From positions 35,543 through 99,542 of the forward strand of contig DFZN01000043.1 of NCBI GenBank assembly GCA_002382735.1: a stretch of DNA of 64,000 nt. The letters are read 5' to 3'. Below, piece after piece: positions 24,905 to 42,338 of the stretch. The position numbers and the translations under genes were made by a program. The notes under the pieces are model-generated. The model was given only the letters and a program-made list of their open reading frames with translations. It was not told where the DNA came from and ran no database searches. Each line of letters opens with the position of its first letter. Within the stretch, counting starts at the first letter, position 1. Source of the stretch: a bacterium UBP11_UBA4055. Its GTDB lineage: Bacteria > UBA4055.

Positions 24905-26979
24905 ATCTTTGTTATCCTTATCTCTTTCCCGCCGGACATTATACCCACTTCTCTTATGCCTTTTCGCTGACAGAGCTCAGCTTCCGTCCGGGCTGACACC
25001 TTACCGTTCTTCACGATCCTTCCCGTTACCTTTTTGCCGTCATGTTTTGCGTAGAATCCCTTCTGGCTGCTTAGACCGGTTCCGAAAGATTTTATTAAGA
25101 GAGGAATTCTTGAACTTCTAAGCACATTTTCAGGAATATATTCGTTCCATTCTATATCGTCGTCGTCGGAAAACGGGACAGAGGGAAGCGCGAGGAAAAA
25201 ATATCGTAAGGCTGAAGTATAATTCCCGTCGTATTTGAAGAAAACGAACCTGCCTTTATCGGTACCGAAGTACAATCTGCTTCCTTTGCCGTCGGAAAAA
25301 TAATATGTGCCTTCTACTTCCATCCCGACCTTTAATGTCAGATCGGATATTACCCTGCCGTTTTCTGTCACTTTATAGCTGAACTGCTCATCGAGAACGA
25401 ACTGAAGTTTTCTCGAAAGCGTTTTCGAAGTGACGAGCGGAATGACCGTGTCGTTCTTTGAAAGATATTTTGCATCTGTATCCTTTCCGTTGACCTTGAG
25501 AGAGTTGAAGGCGAATTCTATGCCGGGCGTTCCTATCAGATGATTAAGTTGTACCTGAACATGAAGGTGAGGCTCGGGCGAATAACCTGAATTCCCGCAT
25601 TCGGCTATGAGCCGGCCTTTTGTAATCTGGTCGTTCTTTTTGACTCTGACCGAACCCTGTTTCAAATGCGACAGTTCGACATAATATCCCGGATAAACAT
25701 AAATTATGATATAATTCCCCCAGTTGCTGGATTTATCGACCTCGCCTATCTCATTGTCGTCAAGGTCGTCGAACACTTCGACTACCGTACCGTCGGCCGG
25801 AGAGAGTACGGGTTTTCCGAAGCAGAAATAATCCTCTCTTTTTGACCCGTCGCCGGAAAATGTTTTACCGTTCTCCGAAATAACGAAGTCGTACGCATAT
25901 TTCCAGAACCCTTTGTGCGTCCACTCGCCGTCAAATCCCTGATAAACAGTCCATTTACCGGAGAACGGCAGCCTGATCGAAGGCGTGACCCAGTCGAACC
26001 TGTTCGAATAGTTGAGGTGGTCAACGAGCGCCATCTCAGGCTGTTCGAGGCCGGTTGAGTTCATCATCACATATTTCACGCTTCCGAGAACATAGATGTA
26101 TAAGAGCACAGTAAGGTTGAACGGAAGGGTGAATACCGGTATGCCGAAGGAGATCCAGAACACAGATGCGGCGTCAATGATGAAGACCGAGCCGAGTACT
26201 GCCGTCAGGGTCAAGAGGTATGTCCTCTTGGACGGTATCAGGAACATTCCGCCGAGAGCAGCGCCGACGAGTATGAAGTTGAATGAGGATATTTCGGCGA
26301 AAGCGAGCGGGATGCTTCCCTTTAACAGAGACAGGAAAAATATTCCTGCGTAATACGAAGCGACGGCGGAAAAGAATGTAATTCTGGAGTACAGAAGTAT
26401 CGCGAGCAGAAGTATCAGTCCCACGATGTCGTAAGGCATGAATATCAGTATGCCGGCGGCGCGTAGGAGACCCTGTACATATCCGGGCAGAAAGTCGAGG
26501 TTAAAATATTCCTGCTTATAGAATGAGTCGACGATAAGGCTGCTGTATTTACCTGAAGCAAGATATATTATCGTAGCCGAGATCGTGAAAGGGATGTTGA
26601 GCACCGGCAGTTTGAAGTACAGATACAGCGCAGAACTTATGGTATATGTGAGAAGGACGGTAAATATGCTCATTCCGACTGCCAGCAGCATCGAAAGGTA
26701 AGTTACCTTGAATATGAACCCGACAGCGAACCCGGTCAGAAGCGCGTTGTAGGTGAGAAGCTTGTTGACAGGATCATCCTTTTTTATTCCGATGAATCTG
26801 GAGAATAATAGAGCGGTGATCAGCCCGATAATTCCCGTAAGAGCTATATTTCTGTTGAACAGTGTCGCAAAGAAAAGAATGAGGCCGAGCGCCTGATTTC
26901 TTATGAAGAACAGGTTGGAGTAGGCGTGGAGCAGTTCTCGAATGAACTCAGCGGCCTTCGAAGCTCTTTTTTCTTCCAT
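24901..26979 (-). CDS. Urea-transporter-like membrane domain fused to an M23 peptidase domain
   Basis: ~300-aa polytopic N-terminus (YNALLTG, LPVLNIPF, IPVFTLPFN); M23 motifs H..YAYD, SHLKQGS, GNSGYSPEPHLH. Confidence 0.85.
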   Translation of the reverse strand: MEEKRASKAAEFIRELLHAYSNLFFIRNQALGLILFFATLFNRNIALTGIIGLITALLFSRFIGIKKDDPVNKLLTYNALLTGFAVGFIFKVTYLSMLLAVGMSIFTVLLTYTISSALYLYFKLPVLNIPFTISATIIYLASGKYSSLIVDSFYKQEYFNLDFLPGYVQGLLRAAGILIFMPYDIVGLILLLAILLYSRITFFSAVASYYAGIFFLSLLKGSIPLAFAEISSFNFILVGAALGGMFLIPSKRTYLLTLTAVLGSVFIIDAASVFWISFGIPVFTLPFNLTVLLYIYVLGSVKYVMMNSTGLEQPEMALVDHLNYSNRFDWVTPSIRLPFSGKWTVYQGFDGEWTHKGFWKYAYDFVISENGKTFSGDGSKREDYFCFGKPVLSPADGTVVEVFDDLDDNEIGEVDKSSNWGNYIIIYVYPGYYVELSHLKQGSVRVKKNDQITKGRLIAECGNSGYSPEPHLHVQVQLNHLIGTPGIEFAFNSLKVNGKDTDAKYLSKNDTVIPLVTSKTLSRKLQFVLDEQFSYKVTENGRVISDLTLKVGMEVEGTYYFSDGKGSRLYFGTDKGRFVFFKYDGNYTSALRYFFLALPSVPFSDDDDIEWNEYIPENVLRSSRIPLLIKSFGTGLSSQKGFYAKHDGKKVTGRIVKNGKVSARTEAELCQRKGIREVGIMSGGKEIRITKI

Positions 26980-26991
26980 GCTCTCCCGCTG

Positions 26992-28344
26992 TTACAAATT
27001 AAATTTTCTTAGTTTGTCAGGCACGAACTCCGGTCCTGTAATGTCCTCGAGCTTTTCTGCCCGCCTGATCTGCTCAAGCTTTCCGTCCTCCATTATCATC
27101 GCTACTGCCGGACGGTAGCGGATGAACTGCATCCACTGCGTCACATTATATGCGCCCATGGGCGACAGGATTATCCTTGTCCCTTTGGGCAGAGGAGGAA
27201 GAAACGCGCTTTCTGCGACGACATCGATATTCATGCAGAGCGGACCGTACAGTATGCTGTTCTCGTACGCGCCGTGAAGCTCGCGGTCTATCTCGACCTT
27301 GTAGTTGTACCAGGCTGAAGTGTAGAGCAGATTCACGCCGGCGTCGATGATGTAGGACTTCGTCCCGTCGGGCAGGCGCTTGACCGCATCGACGGTTGAG
27401 ATAAGCCAGCCGGCCTCGTCCACTATAGCGCGCCCGGTCTCGAGATACACATCCGGATACTCGTCCGGCGCGAGCTCGTCAAGAAGCGTGTCCGCCACGG
27501 CGTCGATGAAATTCTCGACGGGCTGGACGGCGACTTCGGGCGGAAGATAGGTCCCTTTAAGTTTGTTGTTCGAAGGAAAACCGCCCCCGAAATCGAGGTA
27601 CGATATTGTTATTTCAAATTCATGCTCTATCTTCCGCATCAGCTGCACAACTTTTTTCACTGCCTCTTTGTACGCGTTTGGATCCATCATGAATGTACCT
27701 ATGTGGCAGTGTATCCCCTCGAGGTGCAGATGTTCGCTGTGAGAGATCCTCTTCACAGCGTTGAAGGCGCCGTTGTTCTCGATCGGGAAGCCGAAGCGCG
27801 ACCACTGCGGATAAACTCCCGTGTCCATGTTGACCCTTATGCCGACGGAAACTTTTTTCCCGACTTTTTTTGCGGCTTCCTCCGCCTTGATGATCTCGTC
27901 AAAATTGTCGAGGTTCACCATCGCGCCGTCGGTAAAAGCGGTCACGAGAGAATCCAGCGGCTTATACGGTCCGTTGTAGATTATCCTGTTACCCGGCACG
28001 CCGAGGCTCCTCGCCTTTTCGTACTCGAAGTCGGACACGACCTCGGCAGTCTCACCCTCTTGGTGCAGGATCGAGCATACCGCGCCGAGATAGTTCGTCT
28101 TGTAGGACCAGCTCATCTTCGCTTTCGGGTACTTGCTGGAGAAATATGAATAAATTTTCCTGTACCTTTCCCTTATCACCTTCTCGCTCAGGACGAAAAC
28201 GGGGGATCCGAACTCATCGGTGAACCTGCCTATGGGAATTCCTTCGATGTCCTCCCTGTGGCCTTTGTTGTATGTCACACCGAACTTGTTCATCACTCCG
28301 GCCGACTGTCTTTTTATGTATGGTTTGATGTATTCTTTTTTCAT
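26992..28344 (-). CDS. Fold-type III PLP enzyme (DAP/Orn/Arg decarboxylase family)
   Basis: SYKTN (PLP Lys), HCHIGT, DFGGGF, ETGR, GPLCMNID, GAY. Confidence 0.9.
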   Translation of the reverse strand: MKKEYIKPYIKRQSAGVMNKFGVTYNKGHREDIEGIPIGRFTDEFGSPVFVLSEKVIRERYRKIYSYFSSKYPKAKMSWSYKTNYLGAVCSILHQEGETAEVVSDFEYEKARSLGVPGNRIIYNGPYKPLDSLVTAFTDGAMVNLDNFDEIIKAEEAAKKVGKKVSVGIRVNMDTGVYPQWSRFGFPIENNGAFNAVKRISHSEHLHLEGIHCHIGTFMMDPNAYKEAVKKVVQLMRKIEHEFEITISYLDFGGGFPSNNKLKGTYLPPEVAVQPVENFIDAVADTLLDELAPDEYPDVYLETGRAIVDEAGWLISTVDAVKRLPDGTKSYIIDAGVNLLYTSAWYNYKVEIDRELHGAYENSILYGPLCMNIDVVAESAFLPPLPKGTRIILSPMGAYNVTQWMQFIRYRPAVAMIMEDGKLEQIRRAEKLEDITGPEFVPDKLRKFNL

Positions 28345-29393
28345 TTTTTCACCTCTCCTGATTCGCCGTAAGTGCTTATCTGTTCAAAATCGGATATGTC
28401 TTTTACAAGTTCGTTGGTGTATCTGATCATCAGTTTGCCGCTTTTGTAGTCAGAATGAGTTTCAAACTCCTGACCCGTTAAAAGTTTTACCATTCTCGCA
28501 GGCAGATTTATCCCGCATCCGGCCGGAAAATACACCCATGCAGGGAATCTCGGGTTTATCTCGAGCACATAAATGTCCTGAGTTTTGTTCTCCATGAGCA
28601 CTTCGAACTCGAACCCGCCGCGCCATTTCAGGCCGCTCACGACCTTTTTTGTAGCCTCGATCAGCCGCTCGTTCCTTATGCTGACGGCGTTCCATACCTT
28701 ACCGAGCTTGGTTATTGTCATCTTGCGGATAGCGAAAACGCCCATGTCGTTGCCTTTGCCGTCCCCGCAGCCTATCACATCGTATTCGTCGCCCTGAATG
28801 AACTTCTGGGCTATGATCGGGTAGCCCCATGCGGCCGCGATCTTGATAAAATAACCTTCAGCCTCGCCGGGTGAAGTCGCCTTGAACGCTTCATAGAACG
28901 GGCCTTTGACCATGCAGGGAAAACCGAGCTTCTCTGTGGCCTTGTGCAGGTCGGAAAGTGATGTGCAGCTTATGTATTCCGGTGCTTTCACGCCTATTTT
29001 TTCCGAAAGTTCTTTCAGTTTGAGTTTGTCCCTTAGTCTGAACATCTCCTTTGTGGGTATCAGCATCTTTATGCCCATTTCCACCAGCACCGGCTCGATA
29101 TCCATATAGATCGGAAGTTCGGCGTCTAAAGCTGAGATTATCACATCAAGGTTTTCTTTTTCGTGGATATCCCTGATACGCTCGATAAATGCTTCTTTAC
29201 TGCCTGACGGATATGGCATTATGTAACTTTTGTCTATTATGTGATCAAGATATATTCCAGGTTCAAGAGCGTCGTAGGCAAGACCGATCGCCCTGATCTC
29301 CATCCCGCTTTCCTTAAGCGCACGGCATATTCCGGCACCCGGCCCCGGATTGTCTATCGTATTAATTCCGCTCACCGCGACTGTTATTTTCAT
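28341..29393 (-). CDS. ATP-grasp ligase
   Basis: DKL, PCMVKG, QKFIQGDE, FEFE, LEINPRF. Confidence 0.9.
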   Translation of the reverse strand: MKITVAVSGINTIDNPGPGAGICRALKESGMEIRAIGLAYDALEPGIYLDHIIDKSYIMPYPSGSKEAFIERIRDIHEKENLDVIISALDAELPIYMDIEPVLVEMGIKMLIPTKEMFRLRDKLKLKELSEKIGVKAPEYISCTSLSDLHKATEKLGFPCMVKGPFYEAFKATSPGEAEGYFIKIAAAWGYPIIAQKFIQGDEYDVIGCGDGKGNDMGVFAIRKMTITKLGKVWNAVSIRNERLIEATKKVVSGLKWRGGFEFEVLMENKTQDIYVLEINPRFPAWVYFPAGCGINLPARMVKLLTGQEFETHSDYKSGKLMIRYTNELVKDISDFEQISTYGESGEVKK

Positions 29394-29402
29394 ATTAGCC
29401 GC

Positions 29403-29648
29403 CTAAACAAGAAAATATTTTTTGAGATTTTCGACAAAATCCTGAATATCGACAGTTACTTCATCGTCGGAAGCCTCGAATTCATCCATGATCGCCGACT
29501 TTATCTCATCCTCTTCCTTACCCGCCTTCAGAAGCTCAAGGATCTTAAGCCCGGTCGCGTTAGCTGTGTACGAATGACCCGTCACAGGATCGAAAATGAA
29601 GCCGCTGTCGCTTATTGCAAGTACCGATAATTTGTCTCTGTCCATCAT
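29403..29648 (-). CDS. Stand-alone PqqD/RRE-family protein
   Basis: 81 aa; beta-strands FIFDPVTGHSYTANATGLKILELL then helices EIKSAIMDEFE..EVTVDIQDFVENL, the PqqD wHTH pattern. Confidence 0.85.
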   Translation of the reverse strand: MMDRDKLSVLAISDSGFIFDPVTGHSYTANATGLKILELLKAGKEEDEIKSAIMDEFEASDDEVTVDIQDFVENLKKYFLV

Positions 29649-29740
29649 AAATTCTCCGATAGATTTTTCACAGGTGAACGGAACGCCGGGGTATTTATTT
29701 CACATACCGCCTGATCTGCTGCTTTTTTCAACAGCTTGAT

Positions 29741-29769
29741 AATATACTAATGAAAATCGGTTTTATCAA
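29741..29769 (-). promoter_or_regulatory. Promoter of the PqqD/ATP-grasp operon
   Basis: Minus strand TTGATA-17 nt-TATATT; ~86-nt leader. Confidence 0.6.
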
Positions 29770-29827
29770 TTAAAATAGATTCGGTGAATAAGTAATAACG
29801 ATCATATCCAACATCGAAAATATCTGA

Positions 29828-30250
29828 TTATTCTTTTATCAGATTCACTGTAAAAATATAATCAGTTTTAATTTCGCACTTTTTATTTTCGGTGTTAGTT
29901 ACGACTAACTTAAAAGCGATGTTTGTAGTCTTCTTTATCTTTATCAGTTCTTTTATCATCGAGATATTGAAGTGCCTAGTCGGTTCTTTGTTAGGATCGA
30001 TAAAAACGGTTCGCTTTAGAATTTCTTTACCATCATCCAAAAGGCAAACATCGATAGTTTTGAGCTTTAAATCCTTTTTATAATTTGTAGTTCTGAATAA
30101 AAAACTCAAAGGGAAAATCGCTTCACCTGTGAAATTTTTGCTGACTTTTGCATTTAACTCATTTACCAAACCAACAATTGTATGTTTGCCACCGATTTCA
30201 CTTCTTATATCGTCACAAACTATCACATCATTTAATTTAATATTTTCCAT
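29828..30250 (-). CDS. Beta-rich hypothetical protein (DUF6941-like), third gene of the TA operon
   Basis: VIVCDDIRSEIGGKHTIVG. The start at 30250 (SD GGAGA) overlaps the antitoxin 3' end by 14 nt. Confidence 0.7.
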   Translation of the reverse strand: MENIKLNDVIVCDDIRSEIGGKHTIVGLVNELNAKVSKNFTGEAIFPLSFLFRTTNYKKDLKLKTIDVCLLDDGKEILKRTVFIDPNKEPTRHFNISMIKELIKIKKTTNIAFKLVVTNTENKKCEIKTDYIFTVNLIKE

Positions 30251-30866
30251 TTTGATCTCCTGCGTTATAATCATTACTGCTTTCTTTTACCATCTTATAT
30301 TTCTGTTCCGTAACTATGTAACCATTTTCGCTAACAGCGATCAATGAAACAGCGGAAGCATTTGAAATCTCCGGACTTGCATATTTATTTCTTTCAACAA
30401 GATCGAACTTCTTCATCGCTGCCTCTTTGAATACAGCATCAGTATATTTTTTATCGAACTTACGGGCGGCTACATAAATGATCCATGGATAACTTCTTAT
30501 AACCCTTAACAGAGTTAATCCAATAGCTGAATAATTCAATCTGCTTTTCCACCTTGAGAGTGTGCGGACAGGCAATCCCAATGAATCTTCAATATCCTTA
30601 AGTTTTATATTCTTCTTATTAAAGAATTCAAGAATATTCTTTATTGAGCTTTGCTCAGATATTTTCTGAGCTTTTTCATATTCATCTGTGTAATTCAGCG
30701 TGAAGTTTATTTCATCACCGCATTTCTTGCATCTCAATATTTTTTCTTCAAACTCAACTATTTCACCGAAAGGCACATACTCTGTCTGCTTTTCAATTAC
30801 AGAAGTAAAACTTTCGTTTCCGCAGTAATTGCATTTGATATTTTTCCCATTCAGCTTCATAATCAT
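30237..30866 (-). CDS. MqsA-like antitoxin: Zn ribbon + XRE HTH + ~70-aa C-terminal extension
   Basis: CNYC...CKKC, LKDIEDSLGLPVRTLSRWKS, LLRVIRSYPW. Confidence 0.8.
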   Translation of the reverse strand: MIMKLNGKNIKCNYCGNESFTSVIEKQTEYVPFGEIVEFEEKILRCKKCGDEINFTLNYTDEYEKAQKISEQSSIKNILEFFNKKNIKLKDIEDSLGLPVRTLSRWKSRLNYSAIGLTLLRVIRSYPWIIYVAARKFDKKYTDAVFKEAAMKKFDLVERNKYASPEISNASAVSLIAVSENGYIVTEQKYKMVKESSNDYNAGDQNGKY

Positions 30867-30874
30867 TCCTTTCT

Positions 30875-31282
30875 TTAGATCAATCCCAGTTCGCGCAACT
30901 GCCTTCCCAGATCTGTTTCTTTTTTTCCGTAACCTTCATCATACTTCTTAAACGATTTTATAACCCATATTCCGGTATATTCTGAAAGATAAAACGCAAG
31001 ATAACCGTCAATAAACTTGTAAACGAACATATAAGAATCTACTTTCGGTGGCGGAGTTTCTGATGTCTTTTCCAAATCCCGGGTTTTGAGGTATTTCAAC
31101 TCTTTTATATTTAAATTTATGACCGCAGAGAATAATTCATTCTTATTATCGATACCGAAAACAGACTTTGCATCCTCAATAACCTTTGTCTTGATCTCTA
31201 CGGTATTTTTGCCATTCATTGCAAACTTACACGCTGTCTTCAATTTGCCGAATTCATAATATGGTCCCGATTTTGCCAACAT
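30875..31282 (-). CDS. MqsR/RelE-like toxin (putative)
   Basis: GPYY N-terminus, DSY, YLAF, VIKSFK; lies directly upstream of the Zn-HTH gene. Start is likely 31282. Confidence 0.65.
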   Translation of the reverse strand: MLAKSGPYYEFGKLKTACKFAMNGKNTVEIKTKVIEDAKSVFGIDNKNELFSAVINLNIKELKYLKTRDLEKTSETPPPKVDSYMFVYKFIDGYLAFYLSEYTGIWVIKSFKKYDEGYGKKETDLGRQLRELGLI

Positions 31283-31294
31283 TTCTTCCCGTTT

Positions 31295-31336
31295 ATACAC
31301 GGAATGTATTATAATGATACACAACACGAAATGCAA
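31295..31336 (-). promoter_or_regulatory. Consensus promoter of the TA operon with overlapping palindrome
   Basis: TTGCAT-17 nt-TATAAT (31336-31308); palindrome ATACA-cggaa-TGTAT at 31295-31309. Confidence 0.75.
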
Positions 31337-31514
31337 GAAGATTTATTAATTTCTTTTTGGCGGCGGGAAACAAATTGTGGCGACAGTGTATCTACAATCG
31401 TATATTACTTGAAATATTTATTACTTATATAAAGTCTAACTTACTAAGAACAACCTACCCCAACACATAACCCGCAAGGATCTTCTGCACTTCATAAATA
31501 TGATACTTTTCCCT

Positions 31515-31557
31515 TTGACTTTACAGAGGATTTACTTTAAATTGATACTGTAAAAGT
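31515..31557 (+). promoter_or_regulatory. Promoter of the DUF4365-like cassette, framed by an inverted repeat
   Basis: TTGACT-17 nt-TAAATT; TTTACAG (31520-31526) / CTGTAAA (31548-31554). Confidence 0.55.
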
Positions 31558-31579
31558 GAAAAAGAGAATAAAATAAACC

Positions 31580-32095
31580 ATGATGACTGAACAACATATA
31601 AAAGAAGCAATCTCTAAGAAATTTATAGGCTTAATTGCTTCAAAGTGCGGATATTCTACCTCTGAACCTTCTCAAGATTACGGTAGAGATTTATCAATTG
31701 TTGAAGTTGGTATCAGGAACGAAAATAATAAATCCAGATATTCTGAAACCGGTAGAGAACTTAAATTTCAACTTAAGGCTACAACTGAAAATTCTGTAAT
31801 TGTATCAGACGATAATCTTAAATATGATCTGGAAGCAAAAAATTACAACGATCTAATTATGAGACGCAATACGAAAAGTCCGCTTATTCTTGTGCTTTTT
31901 ATACTCCCGACAAATCAGACTGAGTGGCTGATTGTGTCAGAAAACGAACTAATTTCAAAAAAATGTGCTTATTGGTATATTCCTCAACAAAACGAAGCAA
32001 CAACAGAAAACACCGATACTAAACGAATCGTAATTAATAAAAACAATCTTGTAAATCCTGAGTCATTAAATCAACTGTTTGAAGAGTACGCATGA
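31580..32095 (+). CDS. DUF4365-like PD-(D/E)xK nuclease-fold protein
   Basis: DYGRD, FQLKAT, YDLEAKNYNDL, PLILVLFILP, CAYW. Confidence 0.85.
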   Translation: MMTEQHIKEAISKKFIGLIASKCGYSTSEPSQDYGRDLSIVEVGIRNENNKSRYSETGRELKFQLKATTENSVIVSDDNLKYDLEAKNYNDLIMRRNTKSPLILVLFILPTNQTEWLIVSENELISKKCAYWYIPQQNEATTENTDTKRIVINKNNLVNPESLNQLFEEYA

Positions 32096-33189
32096 TGAAT
32101 AACGAAATCATTTACAAAAATATTAACGATTTACTTTCGGGCAGAAATTGGACTTTGGCTGATACGAAAAGTAAATACGACATTTATTTACCTCCGCAGG
32201 ATTTGAACTTTGAAAACAGCTATAAGTTATTTCTATACAATAAACCCGATTTCTCAGATTACGAATCCGAGATAATAAAAATTCTTGAAATATTATCCCA
32301 AATATATAAAGAAGACCCTGACGAATTGGCTTCGATAGTAATTGAGGACCGTCAGATATTATCTTTGCATATCTCAGATGACGACAAACTGGATGAAAGA
32401 CCAAGCATACCATTTTTCGATAATTTAATCCATAAGGCTAAAGAGCTGCTTCAGGAAAATGCGAATTTTACTGTCATGCAACAGGCACACCTCTTTGACA
32501 GATGCGAAGAATCCGAAAGATACCTGAATTACTGCAACTTTTTCAAAAATGATAAAGGTAGTTTAATAACCAAGATTCAGCTCCCTAACAAAGAAGAAAT
32601 AAAAGAAAGCAATCTTTTTAACAAACCTATTACCGGCAACTCTATAAACAACAGACTAATGCAAATAACTAAATTCATTAATGACAAAATAATTACAGCT
32701 GACAATTATGAGCCGGATGATGCATTTCTATTAAAAAATCAGGATAATATCAGTGTTAATGTGTCAGGGAAATTAAGAGAACTCTATCTCGGCGTAGATT
32801 TAGCCGACATGGAAATAACACTTAACAGCACAGAGAAAAAACAAACTACTTTTGTAAAGAATCTTACTAAAGACAGCGTAGAAAATTTAAATAAATTCTC
32901 GAAAGTAATACGGGAAAGAATGAAAGAAATATTAGACGATCAGTTTGTAGGAAAAGTAGTCAAACTGGAATCTAAAGATATCGAAAGCGACAAAAATAAA
33001 GTCTATGTTTTAGCTGAAATCAAAAAGATAAAAAAGAATGTACTCGTTTATCTTGACTCTGACGATTATCAAACAGCCATAGAGGCGCACAAAAACAATA
33101 AATCCGTATTAGTAAACGGAACAATTGAAAAAGAAAAAACTCAATACAAAGTCACAGAGCTAAAATCGTTCAAAAAACTCTCGGAATAA
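32092..33189 (+). CDS. Hypothetical protein coupled to the DUF4365-like gene (365 aa)
   Basis: ATGA overlap with the upstream stop; C-terminal OB-like strands FVGKVVKL...DYQTAIEAHKNNKSVLVNG. Confidence 0.8.
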   Translation: MMNNEIIYKNINDLLSGRNWTLADTKSKYDIYLPPQDLNFENSYKLFLYNKPDFSDYESEIIKILEILSQIYKEDPDELASIVIEDRQILSLHISDDDKLDERPSIPFFDNLIHKAKELLQENANFTVMQQAHLFDRCEESERYLNYCNFFKNDKGSLITKIQLPNKEEIKESNLFNKPITGNSINNRLMQITKFINDKIITADNYEPDDAFLLKNQDNISVNVSGKLRELYLGVDLADMEITLNSTEKKQTTFVKNLTKDSVENLNKFSKVIRERMKEILDDQFVGKVVKLESKDIESDKNKVYVLAEIKKIKKNVLVYLDSDDYQTAIEAHKNNKSVLVNGTIEKEKTQYKVTELKSFKKLSE

Positions 33190-33216
33190 ATCGGTAAAAT
33201 AAAACCCAAGAGACGC

Positions 33217-34449
33217 ATGGATCAGACAGAAAAACCTACTTTTTTAATCAATCCCGACAGGTTCAGATATCAGCTTGAACGGTATAATATGTCTGTTCCG
33301 GAATTTCTAATTCTGATCAACGAGGACAGGACGAGAGATGTTTATACAAAAGAGGATATTGACGATTATCTGAACGGGAAAGCTAAAGTCAACGAAAGGT
33401 TCTTATCAAGGTTTGATAAAATATTTGAATCTGGCCTCTCATGGGTGATCTCGAACAGAGCTTTGCCGGACAAAATGAAAATGAGCATTTTCTTTAGAAA
33501 AGACACCTTCAATTCTGAACTCAATCTTGAATCGAGAAAGAAGATTGCGCAGTTCGAGGAACTCAAGACAGAAATAAGCATAATGACCAAGCAGATCGGC
33601 TTTAAATCTGAGCGCAAACTAAAACAATTTACCTGTGAAGATAATCCCAAATCAGTTGCGCTTGAAATAAGAGAAGAATTCGACAAAGCTATTGAGCTTC
33701 TAAAGAAAGAAAAAGAGATCAATAAGCACAGGGACGAGAAAGATTATCTGAAAAACCTCATATCCGCCTGCGAATATTTCAACATCTTCGTATTTGAATT
33801 CATTGACAGAAGCAGAACGCCGGGGAACGATATCCGCTTTAACGGTTTTTACACTCATCCGAACATCATAGCCATAAAAAGAAATCAGAATTACATGAAA
33901 AGGGAGATCTTCACTCTCGCCCACGAACTCGCGCATTATCTCATCAATGCCGAAGAAATAGATGAAGTCATTGAATCATTCGTCAAAGGTAAAACCGAAA
34001 GATGGTGCAACGATTTCGCATTTCATTTCCTACTCGGAAAACACATAAATACATTCAATGCACTACCTGAAGCTACAAGCGAGAACAATTTTCACAGAAC
34101 CACTATTAAACAATTATCTGAGCAAACATACCTGAGTGAATACGCATTCTACACACGCCTGAAAATCGAAAACAAAATATCAGATTCCGATTATAATGAT
34201 AAAAAGAATCAGATCGAAGCAGCCTTCAGAGCTACATTAGACGCGAAAAAAGCCCAGCAGGATTTACAGGATGAAATAGCAAAACTACAGGGAATCGATC
34301 AATTTAAATCCGGCCCCAAAGAAATAAGATCAAAGCTTTTTGAAGAGATCGTCAAGCTCAATTACTTTCAGGGAAACATAAACGAAACACAGGCAAGAAA
34401 ATACCTGAAAGTAAGCAAAGATAAAACACTCGATGAGGTAATCTACTAA
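33217..34449 (+). CDS. ImmA/IrrE (M78) Zn-metallopeptidase with degenerate N-terminal HTH
   Basis: FNGF, FTLAHELAH (HExxH), ERWCNDFA. Confidence 0.9.
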   Translation: MDQTEKPTFLINPDRFRYQLERYNMSVPEFLILINEDRTRDVYTKEDIDDYLNGKAKVNERFLSRFDKIFESGLSWVISNRALPDKMKMSIFFRKDTFNSELNLESRKKIAQFEELKTEISIMTKQIGFKSERKLKQFTCEDNPKSVALEIREEFDKAIELLKKEKEINKHRDEKDYLKNLISACEYFNIFVFEFIDRSRTPGNDIRFNGFYTHPNIIAIKRNQNYMKREIFTLAHELAHYLINAEEIDEVIESFVKGKTERWCNDFAFHFLLGKHINTFNALPEATSENNFHRTTIKQLSEQTYLSEYAFYTRLKIENKISDSDYNDKKNQIEAAFRATLDAKKAQQDLQDEIAKLQGIDQFKSGPKEIRSKLFEEIVKLNYFQGNINETQARKYLKVSKDKTLDEVIY

Positions 34450-35018
34450 TGGCACAAATCCTCGTCATGGACACATCAAGCATAATTCACTATCTCCACT
34501 ATTACAGATTCGACAAGTTCCATTCAAAAGAAATCTATAACAAACTCAACAGCTTTATCTATCGAAAAATCACCGAAGGCAAAATCCATATAATAGATAA
34601 AGTATATGACGAACTACAAGACAGACTAGAAACAGCCGAAATTAAAAGAATTATACATCCTCATAAGAAATCCACACTTGATTTACTCCCCGAAGTTCAA
34701 GAACTCATTGAAAAATATAAAATACTCGGAATAGTAAGAACTCTCGCATCAGAAGAATTAGAGCTTGAGTTAACAAAATATGAAAACACAATAGCTGATC
34801 TCTTCCTCGTAGCTTACTGCAAAAAACTGCGAAGCCAAGGACACCAACCCATACTCATCAACGACGAAACAAGAAAAAGCGATAGAAAATTCATAGCTAA
34901 AATCCCCACAATCTGCATAGCAGAAGAAATCCGGTTTGAAAAAATCCCGGATGTACTCTTTGAAATATACAAAGACGAGCTTGAATTTAGTCTAGACAAA
35001 AACTTATTATTGAGGTAA
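34449..35018 (+). CDS. DUF4411-like PIN-domain protein
   Basis: MDTSSII, IIDKVYDEL, ADLFLVAY, INDE, KIPTIC; TAATG coupling to the peptidase. Confidence 0.85.
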   Translation: MAQILVMDTSSIIHYLHYYRFDKFHSKEIYNKLNSFIYRKITEGKIHIIDKVYDELQDRLETAEIKRIIHPHKKSTLDLLPEVQELIEKYKILGIVRTLASEELELELTKYENTIADLFLVAYCKKLRSQGHQPILINDETRKSDRKFIAKIPTICIAEEIRFEKIPDVLFEIYKDELEFSLDKNLLLR

Positions 35019-35021
35019 CTA

Positions 35022-35588
35022 TTGGAAAAAACAATAACTAAAGATAAGAATATGGAATTCCATTTGCTTGAATATCAGATGATATTTAACGATTTGGCAA
35101 GATATGATTCTCAAAGCCAAAAAAGTATAACTTTTTTCTCTATAATCATTACTGTGTTATTCTCCTACGGTATGAAGGAAAATATTAATGAAGTCTTCCT
35201 TGCGTTGCCTTTATTACTGATAATCTATTATTCTTTTTTATTAAATAACTCTTATGCCTATTTAATAAGAGAAAAGTACATAATGCAAATTGAAAATATG
35301 TTGTCAGAAAATTCTACTCACTTCTTTTCTGAAATTGTACAAAACTTGTATTATAATAAAAAGAAATTAAACTATCTTAATCCTTTCTCTTTCCTGATTA
35401 TTACAATAACTATAATATGCACTATTCTTATTTTTTTTTGCTTTTATAAAATCTCTAAATATTATACTTTCTCATCTTTACTCGTTTATTTTTGCTTACT
35501 AATAGCTTATATTTCTTGTTGCTGGTATATTTATAGAAAGTCTGTTTATAGGTTAAACAATATTTATAATATTAGAAAAAGGGGATAA
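35022..35588 (+). CDS. Small membrane protein with ~4 TM segments
   Basis: EY..IFNDL helix, two hydrophobic hairpins, REKYIMQIE linker; start is TTG 35022 or ATG 35052. Confidence 0.75.
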   Translation: MEKTITKDKNMEFHLLEYQMIFNDLARYDSQSQKSITFFSIIITVLFSYGMKENINEVFLALPLLLIIYYSFLLNNSYAYLIREKYIMQIENMLSENSTHFFSEIVQNLYYNKKKLNYLNPFSFLIITITIICTILIFFCFYKISKYYTFSSLLVYFCLLIAYISCCWYIYRKSVYRLNNIYNIRKRG

Positions 35589-35591
35589 AAA

Positions 35592-36167
35592 ATGAACAAA
35601 AAAAATACTTTCGATGACTTCGTAAACGCAGAAGTTGCAAAAACAAAAAAGCCTGAACATATAAAAGAAGACTGGGAGAAGAGAAAAAAAGACTGGGTAA
35701 AGCAGACGCAAGATTTTTTCCAAAAAATTAGGCTATGGCTTAAAGAATACACAGATTCTGGTAATATAAAATTAGAATCATCGGAAATAACAATTAATGA
35801 AGAGGAACTTGGCAGCTACAAGGTAGATGAGTTGAATATTGTAATTGGATCAAAAGTAGCAAAGTTAACACCGTATGGCACCATACTTATTGGTGCAAGT
35901 GGTAGAATCGACCTTACTTACGGGACAAATAAAATAAAATTTATTCTCACAAATAAAGATTTGAAAGGTATTGGGTTTACAACTAAAATATATTCAAATC
36001 AAGCCAAGGAAAAAATAGAGAAAGAAAATAAAGAAGAAGTAAAAAAAATGCAGAAGACTACTAATTTAGAGTGGAAAATTGCCACGGAACCACCTATTAT
36101 TACGTTTAAATCCTTAGATAAAGAATCATTCCTTAATGTGTTAATGGCTGCTATGGTTGAAAAATAA
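35592..36167 (+). CDS. Hypothetical protein (191 aa)
   Basis: Clean ORF with SD GGGGA; motif EEELGSY...LTPYGTILIGASGRIDL. Confidence 0.8.
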   Translation: MNKKNTFDDFVNAEVAKTKKPEHIKEDWEKRKKDWVKQTQDFFQKIRLWLKEYTDSGNIKLESSEITINEEELGSYKVDELNIVIGSKVAKLTPYGTILIGASGRIDLTYGTNKIKFILTNKDLKGIGFTTKIYSNQAKEKIEKENKEEVKKMQKTTNLEWKIATEPPIITFKSLDKESFLNVLMAAMVEK

Positions 36168-36666
36168 TATGAAGATAGATATCCTTGATTTTGATACAAT
36201 TGCGCAAATTTTTGAGTATAGAAAAAAAGCTTTAAATTTTTTATATAGTGAAACTAATCCTGAGTATACAACATTATTTTTAGGATTGTCGAGGTCTGAA
36301 ATACTGGAACAAAAGAAAAATGAAATCAAAGAAATAGAAAGAGATGCTTGTTTAAATATTATTGCATCCGTTGAAGCTCGTTTTATGGAAGACTTTAAAT
36401 TCAGAGTAAAAAGAAATAGGTCTAATAATATATTCAGAAATATATTGCCATTTGCTTCAAAGCCAGACAGAATACCAATTGATCACATTATTGATGCTTG
36501 GAAAGTGCAAGAAATAATTGCAAGTGGCATACTCTCAAGATTTAAAGGTGCGTACAAATATAGAAATTGGTTAGCTCATGGCAGACACTGGGCAAAACCT
36601 CAAGAGCATGATTTTTGGGATTTATATACTATTGCAATCTCAACTCGTTTACTACCATTGAACTAA
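36157..36666 (+). CDS. HEPN-domain protein (putative RNase)
   Basis: All-helical 169 aa with RNWLAH (R-x4-H); overlaps the upstream gene by 11 nt. Confidence 0.75.
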   Translation: MKNNMKIDILDFDTIAQIFEYRKKALNFLYSETNPEYTTLFLGLSRSEILEQKKNEIKEIERDACLNIIASVEARFMEDFKFRVKRNRSNNIFRNILPFASKPDRIPIDHIIDAWKVQEIIASGILSRFKGAYKYRNWLAHGRHWAKPQEHDFWDLYTIAISTRLLPLN

Positions 36667-36673
36667 AAATGAA

Positions 36674-37729
36674 TTGGATTATATTATGGATAACGCAGCA
36701 AATAAACTCGAAGGTATAACTCTTAAATCAGGTTGGCTCGTAAAAAAGAAAATTGAAAAATATGACAACCAAACAGGTTCGATTTTTTCAGTCTGTTACA
36801 AAGCAGAAAAAAACGGAGTAACATGTTTTTTAAAAGCATTTGATTTCTCTAAATTCTTTATGTTACATGCCGGTAAATCGGCAATGGAGGTACTAAATGA
36901 AATGTCAAGTGCTTATCTTTATGAAGAAAAATTATCTAATTTTTGTAAAAATAAACATGTGAAGAAAGTTGCATTCGTTATAGAAGCCGGACAAGAAATT
37001 GTAAATGGTTATGCTATAAATATTGTACCATACTTAATTTTTGAGCTTGCTGATGGTGATGTGAGAAAAAAATTAACTATTTCAAAAAATCTAGATTATG
37101 CTTGGAGGTTAAAATCACTTCACGATGTAGCAATAGGCTTAAATCAATTACATAAAATTAATGTCATGCATCAAGATTTAAAACCTTCTAATATTCTTGT
37201 ATTCAGTGATGAATGTAAGATAGGCGATCTTGGTAGGTCTTTATGTAATGACATTGATAGCCCTTTAAGAAATATTTCCTTTTCGGGTGATTTTAATCAT
37301 GCACCTCCTGAAATATTATACAATTATTATGATCCCGATTTAAACAAACGAGCTTATGCTGCTGATTGTTACCTTCTAGGCAGTTTAATAGTATTCTATT
37401 TTTCAGGTTTTAGTATGAATGCACTTTTGATAAAACATATTGAGGATTGTTTTAGTTGGCCGAAGTGGACTGGTAGCTTTACAGAATTGGAACCCTATCT
37501 TGAGCATGCTTTTTCAAAAGCATTAAAGGAATTTGAACATAATATTGATAACATTGAAATTAAGAAAGGTACACTAGAGCTTGTTGAATATTTATGTAAT
37601 CCTATTCCAGCGAAAAGAGGTCATCCGAAAAGTATAGCTTCTATCGGAAGCAATTACAGCTTAGAAAGATTTGTCTCTATGCTGGCTACTCTACAAAAAA
37701 AAGCTGAAGTTATGGTTACACATGGCTAA
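36674..37729 (+). CDS. Ser/Thr protein kinase
   Basis: TGSIFSVCY, FLKAFD, HQDLKPSN, KIGDLG, HAPPE, DCYLLG. Confidence 0.92.
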   Translation: MDYIMDNAANKLEGITLKSGWLVKKKIEKYDNQTGSIFSVCYKAEKNGVTCFLKAFDFSKFFMLHAGKSAMEVLNEMSSAYLYEEKLSNFCKNKHVKKVAFVIEAGQEIVNGYAINIVPYLIFELADGDVRKKLTISKNLDYAWRLKSLHDVAIGLNQLHKINVMHQDLKPSNILVFSDECKIGDLGRSLCNDIDSPLRNISFSGDFNHAPPEILYNYYDPDLNKRAYAADCYLLGSLIVFYFSGFSMNALLIKHIEDCFSWPKWTGSFTELEPYLEHAFSKALKEFEHNIDNIEIKKGTLELVEYLCNPIPAKRGHPKSIASIGSNYSLERFVSMLATLQKKAEVMVTHG

Positions 37730-39293
37730 TTTAAATATAAATAAAAACCGGAACATGATTCCCAATTGGAGAAGTTTCGGTAAATCAGTAATTCTTGGTG
37801 AATTAGATTCTTGTAATAAAAATAACGCTCCTAGAATAGTCACATCAATTGACGAATATATAATTGATTGGAAAGTAAATGGAACTTTAGTTCATGCTTC
37901 AGAACTATTAAGCGCAGCTATTGTTAATAATTTAAGAAATGACATTAATGTGATTGAAGCTGCAAAATTTATTCTTAATAATTCGAAAAATGCTAATTAT
38001 TCCCATATATCAACGGCAAAAATGATATTATCTGGCATATCGAGTATAGATATAAAATCAGATGATATTACAAGAATCGAAATCTTGAATGATCAAATTG
38101 ATAATGACATCGCTAATATAAAGCGAAAAATAACCGATACCAAATTATTATTGAGAAAGTATCCAACCAATCCGATTCTATATACAGAACTTTCTAGATA
38201 CTACTCGATAATAGGGAATGAAAAGAAAGCAATCGAAGCAATGAAAATAGCACTTCATTTTTCAAAAGACAATCGCTTTATCCTTAGATGCGCTACAAGA
38301 CTTTTCACCCATTACGGTAATCCTACTAACGACTATATTGATTATATCCATAAGATTCTCGTGAATAGTATTGCTACACAATATGATCCTTGGCTCACTT
38401 CTGCCGAAATATCTCTTTCTGGGCTGAAGGGAGTATCATCAAAGAATGTAAAAAAGGGAATTGAATTAGCAACTTCAAAAAACATTATGCCTGCTCACAT
38501 TTCTGAATTATCTAGTGCTCTTGCAACTATTGAATTATCGCACGGTAATAGAAAAAAAAGTAGATCGTTTTTTGAAAATGCTTTAATATCTCCAAATGAT
38601 AATACATTAGCGCAGGTTGAATGGGCAATGCAGAAGGACAAAAGTTTGATTCGAGAAAAAATTGATTTCAGCCAGAAATATAATTATGAAGCCGAAAGTC
38701 TTAAATATTTTAATGAACAAAAATATGAATTATCTGTTTTTTATTCAGCTCGATGGTTTATAGATATGCCTTATTCAATAAGGTCGCTTCTGTTTGGTTC
38801 TTATATTTCATCGAATTTCTTGAAGGATCAAAAGAAATCTATTATCTTATTGCAAGCGGGTTTAAAAGGTCATCAAAATGATCCTAAATTAATAAATAAT
38901 CTCGCATATGCTCTTTCACTCGATGGCAAGCCAAATGAAGCTCTTATTGAGCTAAACAAAATCAAATATAATTCAATTCTCGATAGTGAAACTAAAGCTT
39001 GTGTAATTGCAACAGAGGGTTTAGCCAATTACAGACTAGGAAATGAAGATGACGGAAGAGCAATGTATTTAAAAGCTTTAGAAATTACCAAAAGTATTAA
39101 TAATGAAACATTGAATAGGTTAGCCTTGCTCAATCTAGCAAGAGAAGAAATTAGAATAAATTCTAAATATATTAGCAATATTATCGATACGGTAAAAAAA
39201 ATACCCGAATTTCTAAGTGAACCTGAAGTTGTACTGTTAAAAAAGGAAGTCCTTGATCAATTTGAAGTAAATATTAATAAAACGAGGAAATAA
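37722..39293 (+). CDS. TPR/helical-repeat protein coupled to the kinase
   Basis: Start MANLNINK at 37722 overlaps the kinase stop by 8 nt; TPR motifs (YTELSRYY..GNEKKA, NNLAYAL); no signal peptide. Confidence 0.85.
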   Translation: MANLNINKNRNMIPNWRSFGKSVILGELDSCNKNNAPRIVTSIDEYIIDWKVNGTLVHASELLSAAIVNNLRNDINVIEAAKFILNNSKNANYSHISTAKMILSGISSIDIKSDDITRIEILNDQIDNDIANIKRKITDTKLLLRKYPTNPILYTELSRYYSIIGNEKKAIEAMKIALHFSKDNRFILRCATRLFTHYGNPTNDYIDYIHKILVNSIATQYDPWLTSAEISLSGLKGVSSKNVKKGIELATSKNIMPAHISELSSALATIELSHGNRKKSRSFFENALISPNDNTLAQVEWAMQKDKSLIREKIDFSQKYNYEAESLKYFNEQKYELSVFYSARWFIDMPYSIRSLLFGSYISSNFLKDQKKSIILLQAGLKGHQNDPKLINNLAYALSLDGKPNEALIELNKIKYNSILDSETKACVIATEGLANYRLGNEDDGRAMYLKALEITKSINNETLNRLALLNLAREEIRINSKYISNIIDTVKKIPEFLSEPEVVLLKKEVLDQFEVNINKTRK

Positions 39294-42253: not shown

Positions 42254-42338
42254 AAACTACTCCGTTCTTTGTAGTACTAAAGTGTAATATTACGATAATA
42301 TAAGGACTTGAACAGTATTTCGCAATTCAATTAATTCT

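What the first reader, a model, noticed from the sequence alone, without database searches (positions are those of the whole stretch)
31515..33189. Two-gene DUF4365-like nuclease + unknown partner cassette: candidate anti-phage system
The cassette has its own promoter framed by an inverted repeat. A stand-alone 171-aa PD-(D/E)xK protein (D..D..QxK) is ATGA-coupled to a 365-aa protein with no motif I can assign: a small alpha/beta N-domain, a helical middle and an OB-like C-terminus that could bind nucleic acid. There is no methyltransferase, so it is not a classical R-M system. Inference: sensor plus nuclease effector, or a toxin-antitoxin pair.
Basis: partly seen in the sequence, partly recalled or inferred. 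Interest (0 to 1): 0.7.

Follow-up and report, generated by a model that had tools for sequence, protein, structure and literature searches.

The report
Catalogued nuclease-plus-partner defence candidate (PDC-M02)
The two overlapping genes are real and always travel together, but they belong to a gene pair already listed in a public database as an untested candidate anti-phage system, so this is a further member of a known candidate family, not a new kind of system.

Summary
A 171-aa DUF4365 (DREN-type PD-(D/E)xK) nuclease gene (31580-32095) overlaps by ATGA a 365-aa gene (32092-33189). Both hit, full length, the PADLOC-DB models PDC-M02A (E 1e-47) and PDC-M02B (E 1e-26). PDC-M02 is a "phage defence candidate" defined by Payne et al. 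2024 through embedding in BREX/DISARM/type I R-M loci (894 RefSeq occurrences); I found no experimental test of it.

New here:
- The pair is near-obligate: 70 of 72 informative loci sampled from the A side and 23 of 26 from the B side. The two proteins co-diverge (r = 0.91).
- It also occurs in Leptospira phage LE1, Mycobacterium abscessus prophages and a Methylobacterium plasmid.
- Bases 31498-33191 recur at 95% identity in an unrelated context, so the cassette moves as one 1.7-kb unit with its promoter-like leader.
- B has a C-terminal OB fold. Its first 278 residues match no solved structure, and no catalytic-looking residues are conserved.
- Some loci keep an intact A with only B's first 93 residues.

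Best reading (inferred): A is an indiscriminate effector nuclease, restrained and licensed by the non-enzymatic sensor B. The cassette sits in a 12.5-kb low-GC defence island in a Candidatus Delongbacteria genome. Interest is modest.

The parts
31498..33191 (+). The whole mobile unit: leader plus gene A plus gene B. This is the only stretch shared with an unrelated genomic context.
   Evidence: blastn against L041: 94.9% identity over 1694 nt with unrelated flanks. A contig of run X6 covers 31506-33191 and then runs into unlike sequence.
31498..31579 (+). Leader with promoter-like hexamers (TTGACT at 31515-31520, TAAATT at 31538-31543) and a weak inverted repeat (31519-31527 / 31549-31558).
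   Evidence: Found by the consensus scan. Both hexamers are identical in L041, while the right arm of the repeat has an uncompensated G>A. No transcript data were available.
31580..32095 (+). Gene A: a 171-aa stand-alone DUF4365/DREN PD-(D/E)xK nuclease (PDC-M02A). Predicted catalytic residues are D37 (31688-31690), Q64 (31769-31771) and K66 (31775-31777); E9, D33 and G35 are also conserved.
   Evidence: Pfam PF14280, E 1.9e-18. PADLOC PDC-M02A, E 1.1e-47, full length. The G-x-D...Q-x-K pattern matches the NbaSPARDA DREN catalytic residues D41/Q60/K62 (PMC12205087).
32092..33189 (+). Gene B: a 365-aa partner (PDC-M02B) with no curated family. Predicted to be a non-enzymatic sensor or regulator.
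   Evidence: PADLOC PDC-M02B, E 1.4e-26, full length. The family has 789 representatives at 50% identity, almost all 350-390 aa. Across the wide family only S157 and P165 are invariant, and L15, W20, G156, G287, L292, Y326, A329, A332, H333 and G343 are at least 90% conserved.
32092..32376 (+). B N-terminal alpha/beta domain (aa 1-95). Candidate A-binding or A-restraining module.
   Evidence: AlphaFold2 secondary structure. In loci L072, L077 and L078 an intact A is followed by a 93-aa ORF that is this domain alone. In other family members this domain is replaced or absent (P0325, P0355).
32407..32919 (+). B middle region (aa 106-276), mixed alpha/beta. It carries the most conserved motif, E-x-E-R-Y...C-x-F...G-S-x-x-T-K-I-x-L-P (aa 140-165). 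No match to any solved fold.
   Evidence: Model of aa 1-278: pLDDT 88.1, pTM 0.85. Best Foldseek PDB hit has E 0.2, not significant.
32929..33177 (+). B C-terminal OB fold (aa 280-362). Putative nucleic-acid-binding sensor domain.
   Evidence: Foldseek against PDB: Stn1, RPA, Teb1, SSB, LysRS anticodon-binding domain, ExoVII large subunit, RecG wedge and HIN domains; about 90 aligned columns, probability 0.97-1.0, E 2e-3 to 5e-2.

Best explanation
The cassette is a member of the PDC-M02 family, a two-gene module carried in defence islands and on mobile elements. It most likely acts as an anti-phage (or anti-plasmid) system.

Gene A is a stand-alone DREN-type (DUF4365) PD-(D/E)xK nuclease and is the effector. 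Gene B has no enzyme-like conserved residues. I read it as a regulator and sensor: its N-terminal ~90-aa domain holds A in an inactive state, while its middle region and C-terminal OB fold detect an infection cue, most plausibly phage single-stranded or replicating nucleic acid, or a phage protein. Sensing would release A or assemble it into its active oligomer, by analogy with the DREN tetramer of SPARDA. A would then degrade nucleic acids indiscriminately and stop the infection at the cost of the cell.

Shown here: family membership, an intact active-site motif, near-obligate A-B linkage with co-divergence, the OB fold, the mobile-unit boundaries, and the defence-island and prophage contexts.

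Inferred, not shown: any protection, A-B binding, the trigger, oligomerisation, and cell death.
For: - Family membership: full-length hits to PADLOC PDC-M02A and PDC-M02B. PDC-M02 was defined from genes embedded in BREX/DISARM/type I R-M systems, with 894 RefSeq cassettes.
- I saw the embedding directly: in L024, B follows hsdM-hsdS.
- Linkage: A lies directly upstream of B in 23 of 26 informative GTDB loci, and B directly downstream of A in 70 of 72 loci sampled from the A side. Stop/start overlap occurs in 17 of 21 pairs. The A and B identity matrices correlate at r = 0.91, with 0 of 2000 Mantel permutations reaching that value.
- No third gene recurs next to the pair.
- Neighbours elsewhere include AbiLi/HEC-01/AriA-like ATPases, type IIG R-M enzymes, other PDC candidates, GmrSD, HEPN, RES and RelA_SpoT genes.
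- In the window the pair lies in a low-GC island with an M78+DUF4411 pair, PDC-M71 and a SoFic-like gene.
- The pair is carried by Leptospira phage LE1 (gp38/gp37), by M. abscessus prophages (genes 1 and 2, at the prophage end) and by a Methylobacterium plasmid.
- The cassette moves as a discrete 1.7-kb unit.
- The catalytic G-x-D...Q-x-K motif is invariant. It corresponds to the DREN residues whose mutation abolishes SPARDA activity. Isolated DREN is monomeric and inactive until it tetramerises (PMC12205087; 10.1101/2023.06.08.544223).
- B has an OB fold and no catalytic constellation.
- Where loci decay, an intact A always keeps at least B's N-domain (L072, L077, L078). B survives with A frameshifted, truncated or absent (L005, L009, L011, L012, L024).
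Against: - No member of the family has been tested. No paper in the searched library names PDC-M02, and reviews say most PDCs await validation.
- Many neighbours are housekeeping genes, so defence-island association is partial. Payne et al. themselves note that candidates found by embedding associate less with other systems.
- The close clade is absent from 2.9 million IMG/VR contigs.
- The OB matches are weak in E-value (about 1e-3 to 5e-2), and an OB fold need not bind nucleic acid.
- The SPARDA analogy rests on the shared nuclease domain only.
- The 93-aa B remnants could simply be decay inherited from one ancestor.
Confidence: 0.5

Rival explanations
1. A toxin-antitoxin or addiction module. 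A is a constitutively toxic nuclease and B is a stoichiometric protein antitoxin (through its N-domain). The pair's main role is to stabilise the island, plasmid or prophage that carries it; any phage defence is incidental.
For: - Tight translational coupling and co-divergence.
- Carriage on a plasmid beside a serine recombinase and on prophages.
- The decay pattern: A is lost or broken while B stays, and an intact A never occurs without at least B's N-domain.
- TA-like neighbours in the window: an MqsA-like gene and the M78+DUF4411 pair.
Against: - The organisation is atypical for type II TA: B is twice the size of A, lies downstream, and has no recognisable DNA-binding autoregulator domain.
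- B's 270-aa middle-plus-OB portion is conserved across 789 clusters, which a plain antitoxin would not need.
- Isolated DREN is inactive in the one system studied.
- The two readings are not exclusive, since many TA modules are abortive-infection systems.
Confidence: 0.2
2. A restriction-like system that attacks foreign DNA directly (type IV-like, or structure-specific). B recognises a feature of invading DNA, such as modified bases, ssDNA or replication forks, through its OB fold and recruits A to cut that DNA, without killing the cell.
For: - A PD-(D/E)xK nuclease with no methyltransferase nearby.
- B's OB fold resembles ssDNA- and fork-binding domains such as RPA, SSB, the RecG wedge and ExoVII.
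- Embedding in R-M loci (Payne et al.).
- DUF4365 has the topology of Hjc-type junction resolvases (10.1101/2023.06.08.544223).
Against: - B has none of the known modified-base reader folds (SRA, EVE/ASCH, YTH); Foldseek returned only generic OB matches.
- There is no NTPase or translocase in the module.
- The only characterised DUF4365 nuclease is non-specific.
Confidence: 0.15
3. Not an immune system. The pair is a DNA-processing function of mobile elements (recombination, replication restart or repair) that hitch-hikes in variable islands.
For: - The combination of a Hjc-like nuclease fold and an OB-fold protein also fits recombination or repair.
- Many neighbours are housekeeping genes.
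- The pair is present on a phage and a plasmid.
Against: - Distribution is patchy across phyla, with no conserved linkage to integrases, replication genes or repair genes.
- The cassette occurs as an isolated 1.7-kb unit between defence genes in two unrelated contexts.
- It is embedded in R-M operons.
Confidence: 0.1

Closest known systems
PDC-M02 (PADLOC-DB v2 'phage defence candidate'; Payne, Hughes, Fineran & Jackson, bioRxiv 2024, 10.1101/2024.01.29.577857)
   Same: Same two protein families in the same order and orientation. Both proteins match the PDC-M02A and PDC-M02B models over their full length. The cassette is CAS_00021, with 894 RefSeq occurrences.
   Different: Nothing structural differs. 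This copy is from a Candidatus Delongbacteria MAG and is 41-63% identical to most relatives; one is at 86%. PDC-M02 itself is only a prediction: no phenotype, mechanism or description of B has been published, as far as I could find.
SPARDA (short prokaryotic Argonaute + DREN-APAZ)
   Same: The effector domain is the same family (DUF4365/DREN) with the same G-x-D...Q-x-K active site. A weak PADLOC hit to an Argonaute-associated REase also points this way (E 1.8e-4). The likely shared logic is an effector that is inactive until a sensor partner assembles it.
   Different: There is no APAZ domain on A, and no MID-PIWI protein among the genes annotated at 24901-44356. B gives no match to Argonaute or APAZ structures in the PDB. 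Sensing therefore cannot be guide-directed in the SPARDA manner.
Divona (Vibrio integron-cassette defence; 10.1101/2024.07.02.601686)
   Same: A validated defence protein described with a DUF4365 N-terminus and an Mrr-subfamily RecB-like nuclease, carried on a small mobile cassette.
   Different: Divona is a single fused protein with a crr6 domain. Here the nuclease stands alone beside an OB-fold partner. No sequence 3' of B's stop codon is shared between the two copies, so no attC-like element travels with the cassette.
Type II toxin-antitoxin modules that act as abortive-infection systems
   Same: A two-gene, translationally coupled, mobile module with a nuclease and a co-evolving protein partner. 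The partner or a fragment of it always accompanies an intact nuclease.
   Different: Gene order and sizes are atypical. B has no recognisable DNA-binding antitoxin domain and carries a large conserved extra region.

Membership tests
PDC-M02 (PADLOC candidate system) | First protein matches a PDC-M02A model | tested here: met
   PDLC04290, E 1.1e-47, residues 1-169 on profile positions 1-162 of 170; 23 further PDC-M02A models also hit.
PDC-M02 (PADLOC candidate system) | Second protein matches a PDC-M02B model | tested here: met
   PDLC04307, E 1.4e-26, residues 3-362 on profile positions 8-367 of 373; 22 further PDC-M02B models also hit.
PDC-M02 (PADLOC candidate system) | The two genes are adjacent on the same strand, in the order A then B | tested here: met
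   ATGA overlap at 32092-32095. The same arrangement is seen in 70 of 72 and in 23 of 26 related loci.
PDC-M02 (PADLOC candidate system) | Confers protection against phages | not testable with these tools
   No experiment on any member was found in the searched literature.
DUF4365 / DREN PD-(D/E)xK nucleases | Pfam PF14280 match above the gathering score | tested here: met
   67.3 bits against a cut-off of 24.3, covering residues 9-168.
DUF4365 / DREN PD-(D/E)xK nucleases | Catalytic D ... Q-x-K (D41/Q60/K62 in NbaSPARDA) is conserved | tested here: met
   D37, Q64, K66 and G35 are invariant in 38 homologues. The reference residues come from PMC12205087 and 10.1101/2023.06.08.544223. The correspondence is by motif pattern, not by a direct alignment to NbaDREN.
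DUF4365 / DREN PD-(D/E)xK nucleases | Metal-dependent nuclease activity, activated by oligomerisation | not testable with these tools
   Needs biochemistry.
SPARDA (short pAgo system) | DREN fused to an APAZ domain | tested here: not met
   A is 171 aa and consists of DUF4365 only.
SPARDA (short pAgo system) | Adjacent short Argonaute (MID-PIWI) | tested here: not met
   No PIWI hit in B or in any annotated neighbour across 24901-44356. No Argonaute structure appears among the Foldseek matches to B.
Classical R-M system (types I-III) | Cognate DNA methyltransferase in the module | tested here: not met
   None within the cassette or the island. The mobile unit holds only A and B. The PrmA gene at 43493-44356 is a housekeeping protein methyltransferase.
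Type IV (modification-dependent) restriction | Nuclease paired with a modified-base reader domain (SRA, EVE/ASCH, YTH, or an McrB-type N-domain with GTPase) | tested here: inconclusive
   B shows only a generic OB fold and an unmatched N-terminal two-thirds. This is negative evidence only.
Type II toxin-antitoxin | Toxin neutralised by direct binding of a labile antitoxin that usually carries a DNA-binding autoregulator domain | tested here: inconclusive
   No HTH, RHH or AbrB-type domain was detected in B. Binding and toxicity cannot be tested here. The decay pattern is compatible with this family.
Integron gene cassette | An attC recombination site travels with the cassette, 3' of the ORF | tested here: not met
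   Similarity between the two copies ends 2 nt after B's stop codon.

The most novel reading that the evidence does not exclude
PDC-M02 would be an Argonaute-independent way of arming the DREN collateral nuclease. A new type of sensor protein (B) would hold a stand-alone DREN monomer through a small N-terminal domain. On binding phage ssDNA or replication intermediates through its OB fold, B would oligomerise and assemble DREN into its active tetramer. B's N-terminal 278 residues match no solved structure. This would make DREN a portable effector, like TIR or SIR2, that different sensors can plug into, and would give a second, simpler activation route to compare with the SPARDA filaments.
Probability: 0.25. 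Interest if true: 0.6.

Novelty: new member of a known kind. Interest (0 to 1): 0.35.

Why it matters
PDC-M02 is one of the more frequent multi-gene candidates in PADLOC (894 RefSeq cassettes). I found no published description of its second protein or of how it might work.

If the family does protect against phages, it would show that the SPARDA effector nuclease is also used outside Argonaute systems, with a small protein sensor in place of a guide. A compact 1.7-kb module of that kind is easy to study and might be adapted for nucleic-acid detection.

Three results here make the experiment easy to design:
- the exact boundaries of the unit to clone (31498-33191);
- the catalytic residues to mutate (D37, Q64, K66);
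- the domain split of B to test (aa 1-93 against the rest).

For the scan itself, the main value is negative: this finding is already in a public catalogue.

Tried and rejected
- PDB sequence searches with A, with B and with profiles of both gave nothing real. The profile hits were a DUF-like chain at E 0.23 and summed TALE repeats.
- Foldseek of B aa 1-278 against the PDB: best E 0.2 (adenylyl cyclase and Thg1 palm domains, TM 0.2-0.3). I treat this as noise.
- From memory, B's N-domain (helix, three strands, helix, with a 'GW' after the first helix) resembles the HicA/dsRBD fold. Pfam scans of ten isolated N-domains gave no support, so I dropped the idea.
- Pfam, NCBIfam and PHROGs on B returned only sub-threshold scatter: Nse4_C, PDZ_3, CcdA.
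- I looked for a third conserved gene; only A recurs. The M78+DUF4411 pair, which sits 27 nt downstream on the same strand, is not part of the unit. It is absent from the second copy and lies on the other side of the pair in L005.
- I looked for A-B fusion proteins (a 'Rosetta stone' for physical interaction). None was found among 389 fetched proteins.
- An IMG/VR scan for the close B clade found no locus.
- No RNA runs hold the cassette, so operon structure and the transcription start could not be checked.
- Literature searches for PDC-M02 under several spellings gave no hit.
Full report
**What is there**

A is at 31580-32095 (171 aa) and B at 32092-33189 (365 aa), and they overlap in ATGA.

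A is a DUF4365 protein (Pfam PF14280, E 1.9e-18, 67 bits against a cut-off of 24). In an alignment of 38 homologues at 36-85% identity, E9, G35, D37, Q64, K66, T68 and T69 are invariant and D33 is nearly so.

B matches no Pfam, NCBIfam or PHROG family and no PDB sequence.

Both genes are under purifying selection. Against a 95%-identical copy from an activated-sludge contig, A shows 14 synonymous and 3 non-synonymous codon changes, and B shows 48 and 9.

**It is already catalogued**

Against PADLOC-DB v2, A hits PDC-M02A over its full length (E 1.1e-47) and B hits PDC-M02B over its full length (E 1.4e-26). No other PADLOC family gives a comparable hit.

PDC stands for 'phage defence candidate'. 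Payne et al. (bioRxiv 2024, 10.1101/2024.01.29.577857) derived 145 such candidates from genes embedded inside BREX, DISARM and type I R-M systems, and added them to PADLOC without testing them. Their supplementary table lists cassette CAS_00021 (FAM_01850>>FAM_00842), with 894 RefSeq occurrences, as 'Assign as candidate PDC-M02'.

No paper in the searched library mentions PDC-M02 under any spelling.

**Is the pair a unit?**

Yes, on several counts.

- From the B side: 29 loci in GTDB genomes encode a B relative. Three are cut by contig ends. Of the other 26, 23 have A (or a frameshifted or truncated A) directly upstream.
- From the A side: 80 metagenome loci were found with an A profile. Of the 72 with at least 700 nt downstream, 70 have a B-family ORF directly downstream on the same strand. 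The two exceptions have a truncated A.
- Three distant A homologues that I checked individually (from Aquimarina, a JGI metagenome contig, and a MAG labelled Pacearchaeota) are each followed by a B homologue.
- Across 21 pairs, down to 15-19% identity, the A and B identity matrices correlate at r = 0.91, with 0 of 2000 Mantel permutations reaching that value. The genes overlap (TAATG or ATGA) in 17 of the 21 pairs.
- Clustering the neighbouring ORFs (up to five genes either side) of 26 of these loci with the window's island genes shows that A is the only gene that recurs next to B.
- The pair is also found on a Methylobacterium bullatum plasmid, where A is unannotated and lies beside a serine recombinase. 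It is found in Leptospira phage LE1 (gp38 and gp37) and at the end of two identical-length Mycobacterium abscessus prophage records; gene 2 of one (prophi102-2) was confirmed as a B homologue. LE1 gp37 was also the top full-length structural match to my B model (BFVD, E 4e-22, TM 0.59).

**The cassette is a discrete mobile unit**

The activated-sludge contig L041 shares window 31498-33191 at 94.9% identity over 1694 nt, with unrelated flanks on both sides (junction alignments). Laying public contigs on the window gave the same boundaries, 31506-33191.

Similarity begins about 80 nt upstream of A and ends 2 nt after B's stop codon. In L041 the unit sits after a pair of ORFs of 437 aa and 182 aa, and before a 294-aa ORF. 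From their sequences I read the 437-aa product as an AAA-type ATPase and the 294-aa product as CoiA-like; neither was run against a family library.

The TTGACT-17-TAAATT hexamers at 31515-31543 are identical in both copies.

It does not support a functional inverted repeat. The repeat is 9 bp with a bulge, its right arm has an uncompensated G>A in L041, and similar repeats abound in the same 320 nt. Promoter-like sites are no more frequent here than in shuffled sequence. No RNA data exist for this sequence.

**Context in the window**

The cassette lies in a low-GC island from about 29.7 to 42.3 kb (GC 0.31-0.36, against about 0.45 in the flanks). The island sits between a PqqD/ATP-grasp operon and prmA.

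The island also holds:
- an M78 (ImmA/IrrE) peptidase plus DUF4411 pair (33217-35018);
- three small unknown ORFs;
- PDC-M71 (kinase plus TPR protein; E 1e-148 and 5e-162);
- a 934-aa orphan;
- a SoFic-like Fic protein (E 2e-47).

PrmA falls in a 90%-identity cluster most of whose named members are labelled Candidatus Delongbacteria MAGs. The sequence recurs in hydrocarbon, groundwater, oil-field and wastewater metagenomes. The host is therefore not Bacteroides. The closest relatives of the cassette are, however, mostly from Bacteroidota, which fits horizontal acquisition.

Elsewhere, neighbours of the pair are mixed. Defence-type neighbours include AbiLi/HEC-01/AriA-like ATPases, type IIG R-M enzymes, PDC-M07/M30/M41, GmrSD, HEPN and RES genes. 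Housekeeping neighbours include Hsp70, AdoHcy hydrolase and PheRS. In L024, B lies immediately after hsdM-hsdS.

**What B looks like**

AlphaFold2 with a 47-sequence alignment gave a confident model (pLDDT 87.7, pTM 0.77). Its parts are:
- an alpha/beta N-domain (aa 1-95);
- a mixed alpha/beta middle (aa 106-276);
- a five-stranded barrel with an inserted helix (aa 280-362).

Foldseek against the PDB matched only the last part, to OB folds of Stn1, RPA, Teb1, SSB, the LysRS anticodon-binding domain, ExoVII, the RecG wedge and HIN domains (probability 0.97-1.0, E 2e-3 to 5e-2).

A separate model of aa 1-278 (pLDDT 88, pTM 0.85) has no significant PDB match (best E 0.2).

The family is sizeable and uniform. 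It has 789 representatives of 50%-identity clusters at E <= 1e-3, nearly all 350-390 aa. Across 57 members at 17-41% identity only S157 and P165 are invariant, and L15, W20, G156, G287, L292, Y326, A329, A332, H333 and G343 are at least 90% conserved. Nothing in this set looks like an active site, so B is most likely a binding or regulatory protein.

**A clue to the division of labour**

Three related contigs with different downstream contexts (L072, L077, L078) have an intact A followed by a 93-aa ORF. That ORF is B's N-domain alone, ending at the same stop codon, and the three copies differ from one another at several residues.

Two further loci (L070, L079) keep similarity to B only over the N-domain. 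Conversely, some family members replace or lack the N-domain (P0325, P0355). B also persists where A is frameshifted, truncated or absent (L005, L009, L011, L012, L024).

In this sample an intact A is never found without at least B's N-domain. I read the N-domain as the part that binds and restrains A, and the middle plus OB fold as the sensing part. This is inference from about 110 loci, and the truncations may share one origin.

**Mechanism proposed**

DUF4365 is the DREN effector nuclease of SPARDA. Mutating D41, Q60 and K62 abolishes its indiscriminate DNase/RNase activity (10.1101/2023.06.08.544223; PMC10810196). The isolated domain is monomeric and inactive until filament formation brings it into tetramers (PMC12205087).

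A carries the same G-x-D...Q-x-K pattern but has no APAZ domain, and there is no Argonaute nearby.

The best-supported model (confidence 0.5) is that B replaces the Argonaute/APAZ sensor. B would hold A inactive. On sensing an infection cue through its OB fold, B would release A or assemble it into an active oligomer, leading to collateral nucleic-acid degradation and abortive infection.

Rivals:
- a plain toxin-antitoxin or addiction module (0.2);
- a restriction-like system in which B directs A to foreign DNA (0.15);
- a non-immune DNA-processing function of mobile elements (0.1).

The first two overlap with the main model and can be separated only by toxicity, multiplicity-of-infection and biochemical experiments.

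**Verdict**

The finding is real and correctly interpreted as a candidate defence pair, but it is a new member of an already catalogued, untested family. This analysis adds the following to the catalogue entry:
- the fold description of B;
- the strength of the A-B linkage;
- the exact mobile-unit boundaries;
- the prophage and plasmid copies;
- the variants with only B's N-domain.

Interest is 0.35.

Noticed in passing
window 33217-35018 (+); also L005 7565-9207: An M78 ImmA/IrrE-type metallopeptidase (410 aa, HExxH; Pfam E 2e-7; PADLOC capP E 4e-9) overlaps by 1 nt with a DUF4411 protein (189 aa). It is a separate two-gene module 27 nt downstream of B. The same pair lies directly upstream of a decayed PDC-M02 in a Porphyromonas MAG, so the two modules are neighbours in two independent loci, in different order.
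   Followed up: partly
window 36674-39293 (+): A second PADLOC candidate system, PDC-M71: a Ser/Thr kinase (E 1e-148) plus a TPR protein (E 5e-162), in overlapping ORFs.
   Followed up: no
window 39449-42253 (-): A 934-aa ORF in the island with no Pfam, PADLOC, PHROG or NCBIfam hit. It is a singleton at 90% identity among about 15 billion proteins. It lies between PDC-M71 and a SoFic-like Fic gene (42339-43451; PADLOC SoFic E 2e-47).
   Followed up: no
window 30237-31336 (-): A 153-aa ORF followed by a 209-aa ORF with two CxxC pairs and a weak MqsA-family hit (TIGR03830, E 1.5e-4, below the cut-off). This may be an MqsRA-like toxin-antitoxin pair, transcribed divergently from the cassette. The next ORF (29828-30274) is a weak DUF6941 match.
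   Followed up: no
window 29700-42300: A low-GC island (0.31-0.36, against about 0.45 in the flanks) with no integrase; the only tRNA in the window (tRNA-Leu, 48304-48390) is not at either edge. Contigs from an oil-field run (X4) cover 27.0-33.0 kb and 39.6-45 kb at about 95-100% identity, but nothing between 33.6 and 39.6 kb. This suggests the island's modules turn over between strains. The data show presence only, not absence.
   Followed up: partly
L072 4491-4772, L077 4449-4730, L078 4240-4521: An intact DUF4365 gene followed by a 93-aa ORF that equals B's N-terminal domain alone. The stop codon is the same in three contigs with different downstream genes. This may be a minimal nuclease-plus-restraint variant.
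   Followed up: partly
L024 295-4465; L012 434-2604: B occurs without any DUF4365. In L024 it lies directly after hsdM-hsdS of a type I R-M system. In L012 it lies after two tandem DUF5618 genes and beside an Eco57I/TaqI_C-type methylase fragment. B may work with other partners.
   Followed up: no
window 31491-31497 and 33186-33191; L041 2547-2552 and 4231-4236 (approximate): The hexamer ATAAAT lies at or next to both ends of the shared 1.7-kb unit in both copies. On the right it overlaps B's stop codon. It could be microhomology used for insertion, or chance in AT-rich DNA.
   Followed up: no
window 24901-29648 (-): An operon of a PqqD-like protein (81 aa), an ATP-grasp enzyme, a PLP-dependent Orn/DAP-type decarboxylase and a urea-transporter/M23-peptidase fusion (692 aa). 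It looks like a small peptide-modification or RiPP-like cluster bordering the island.
   Followed up: no
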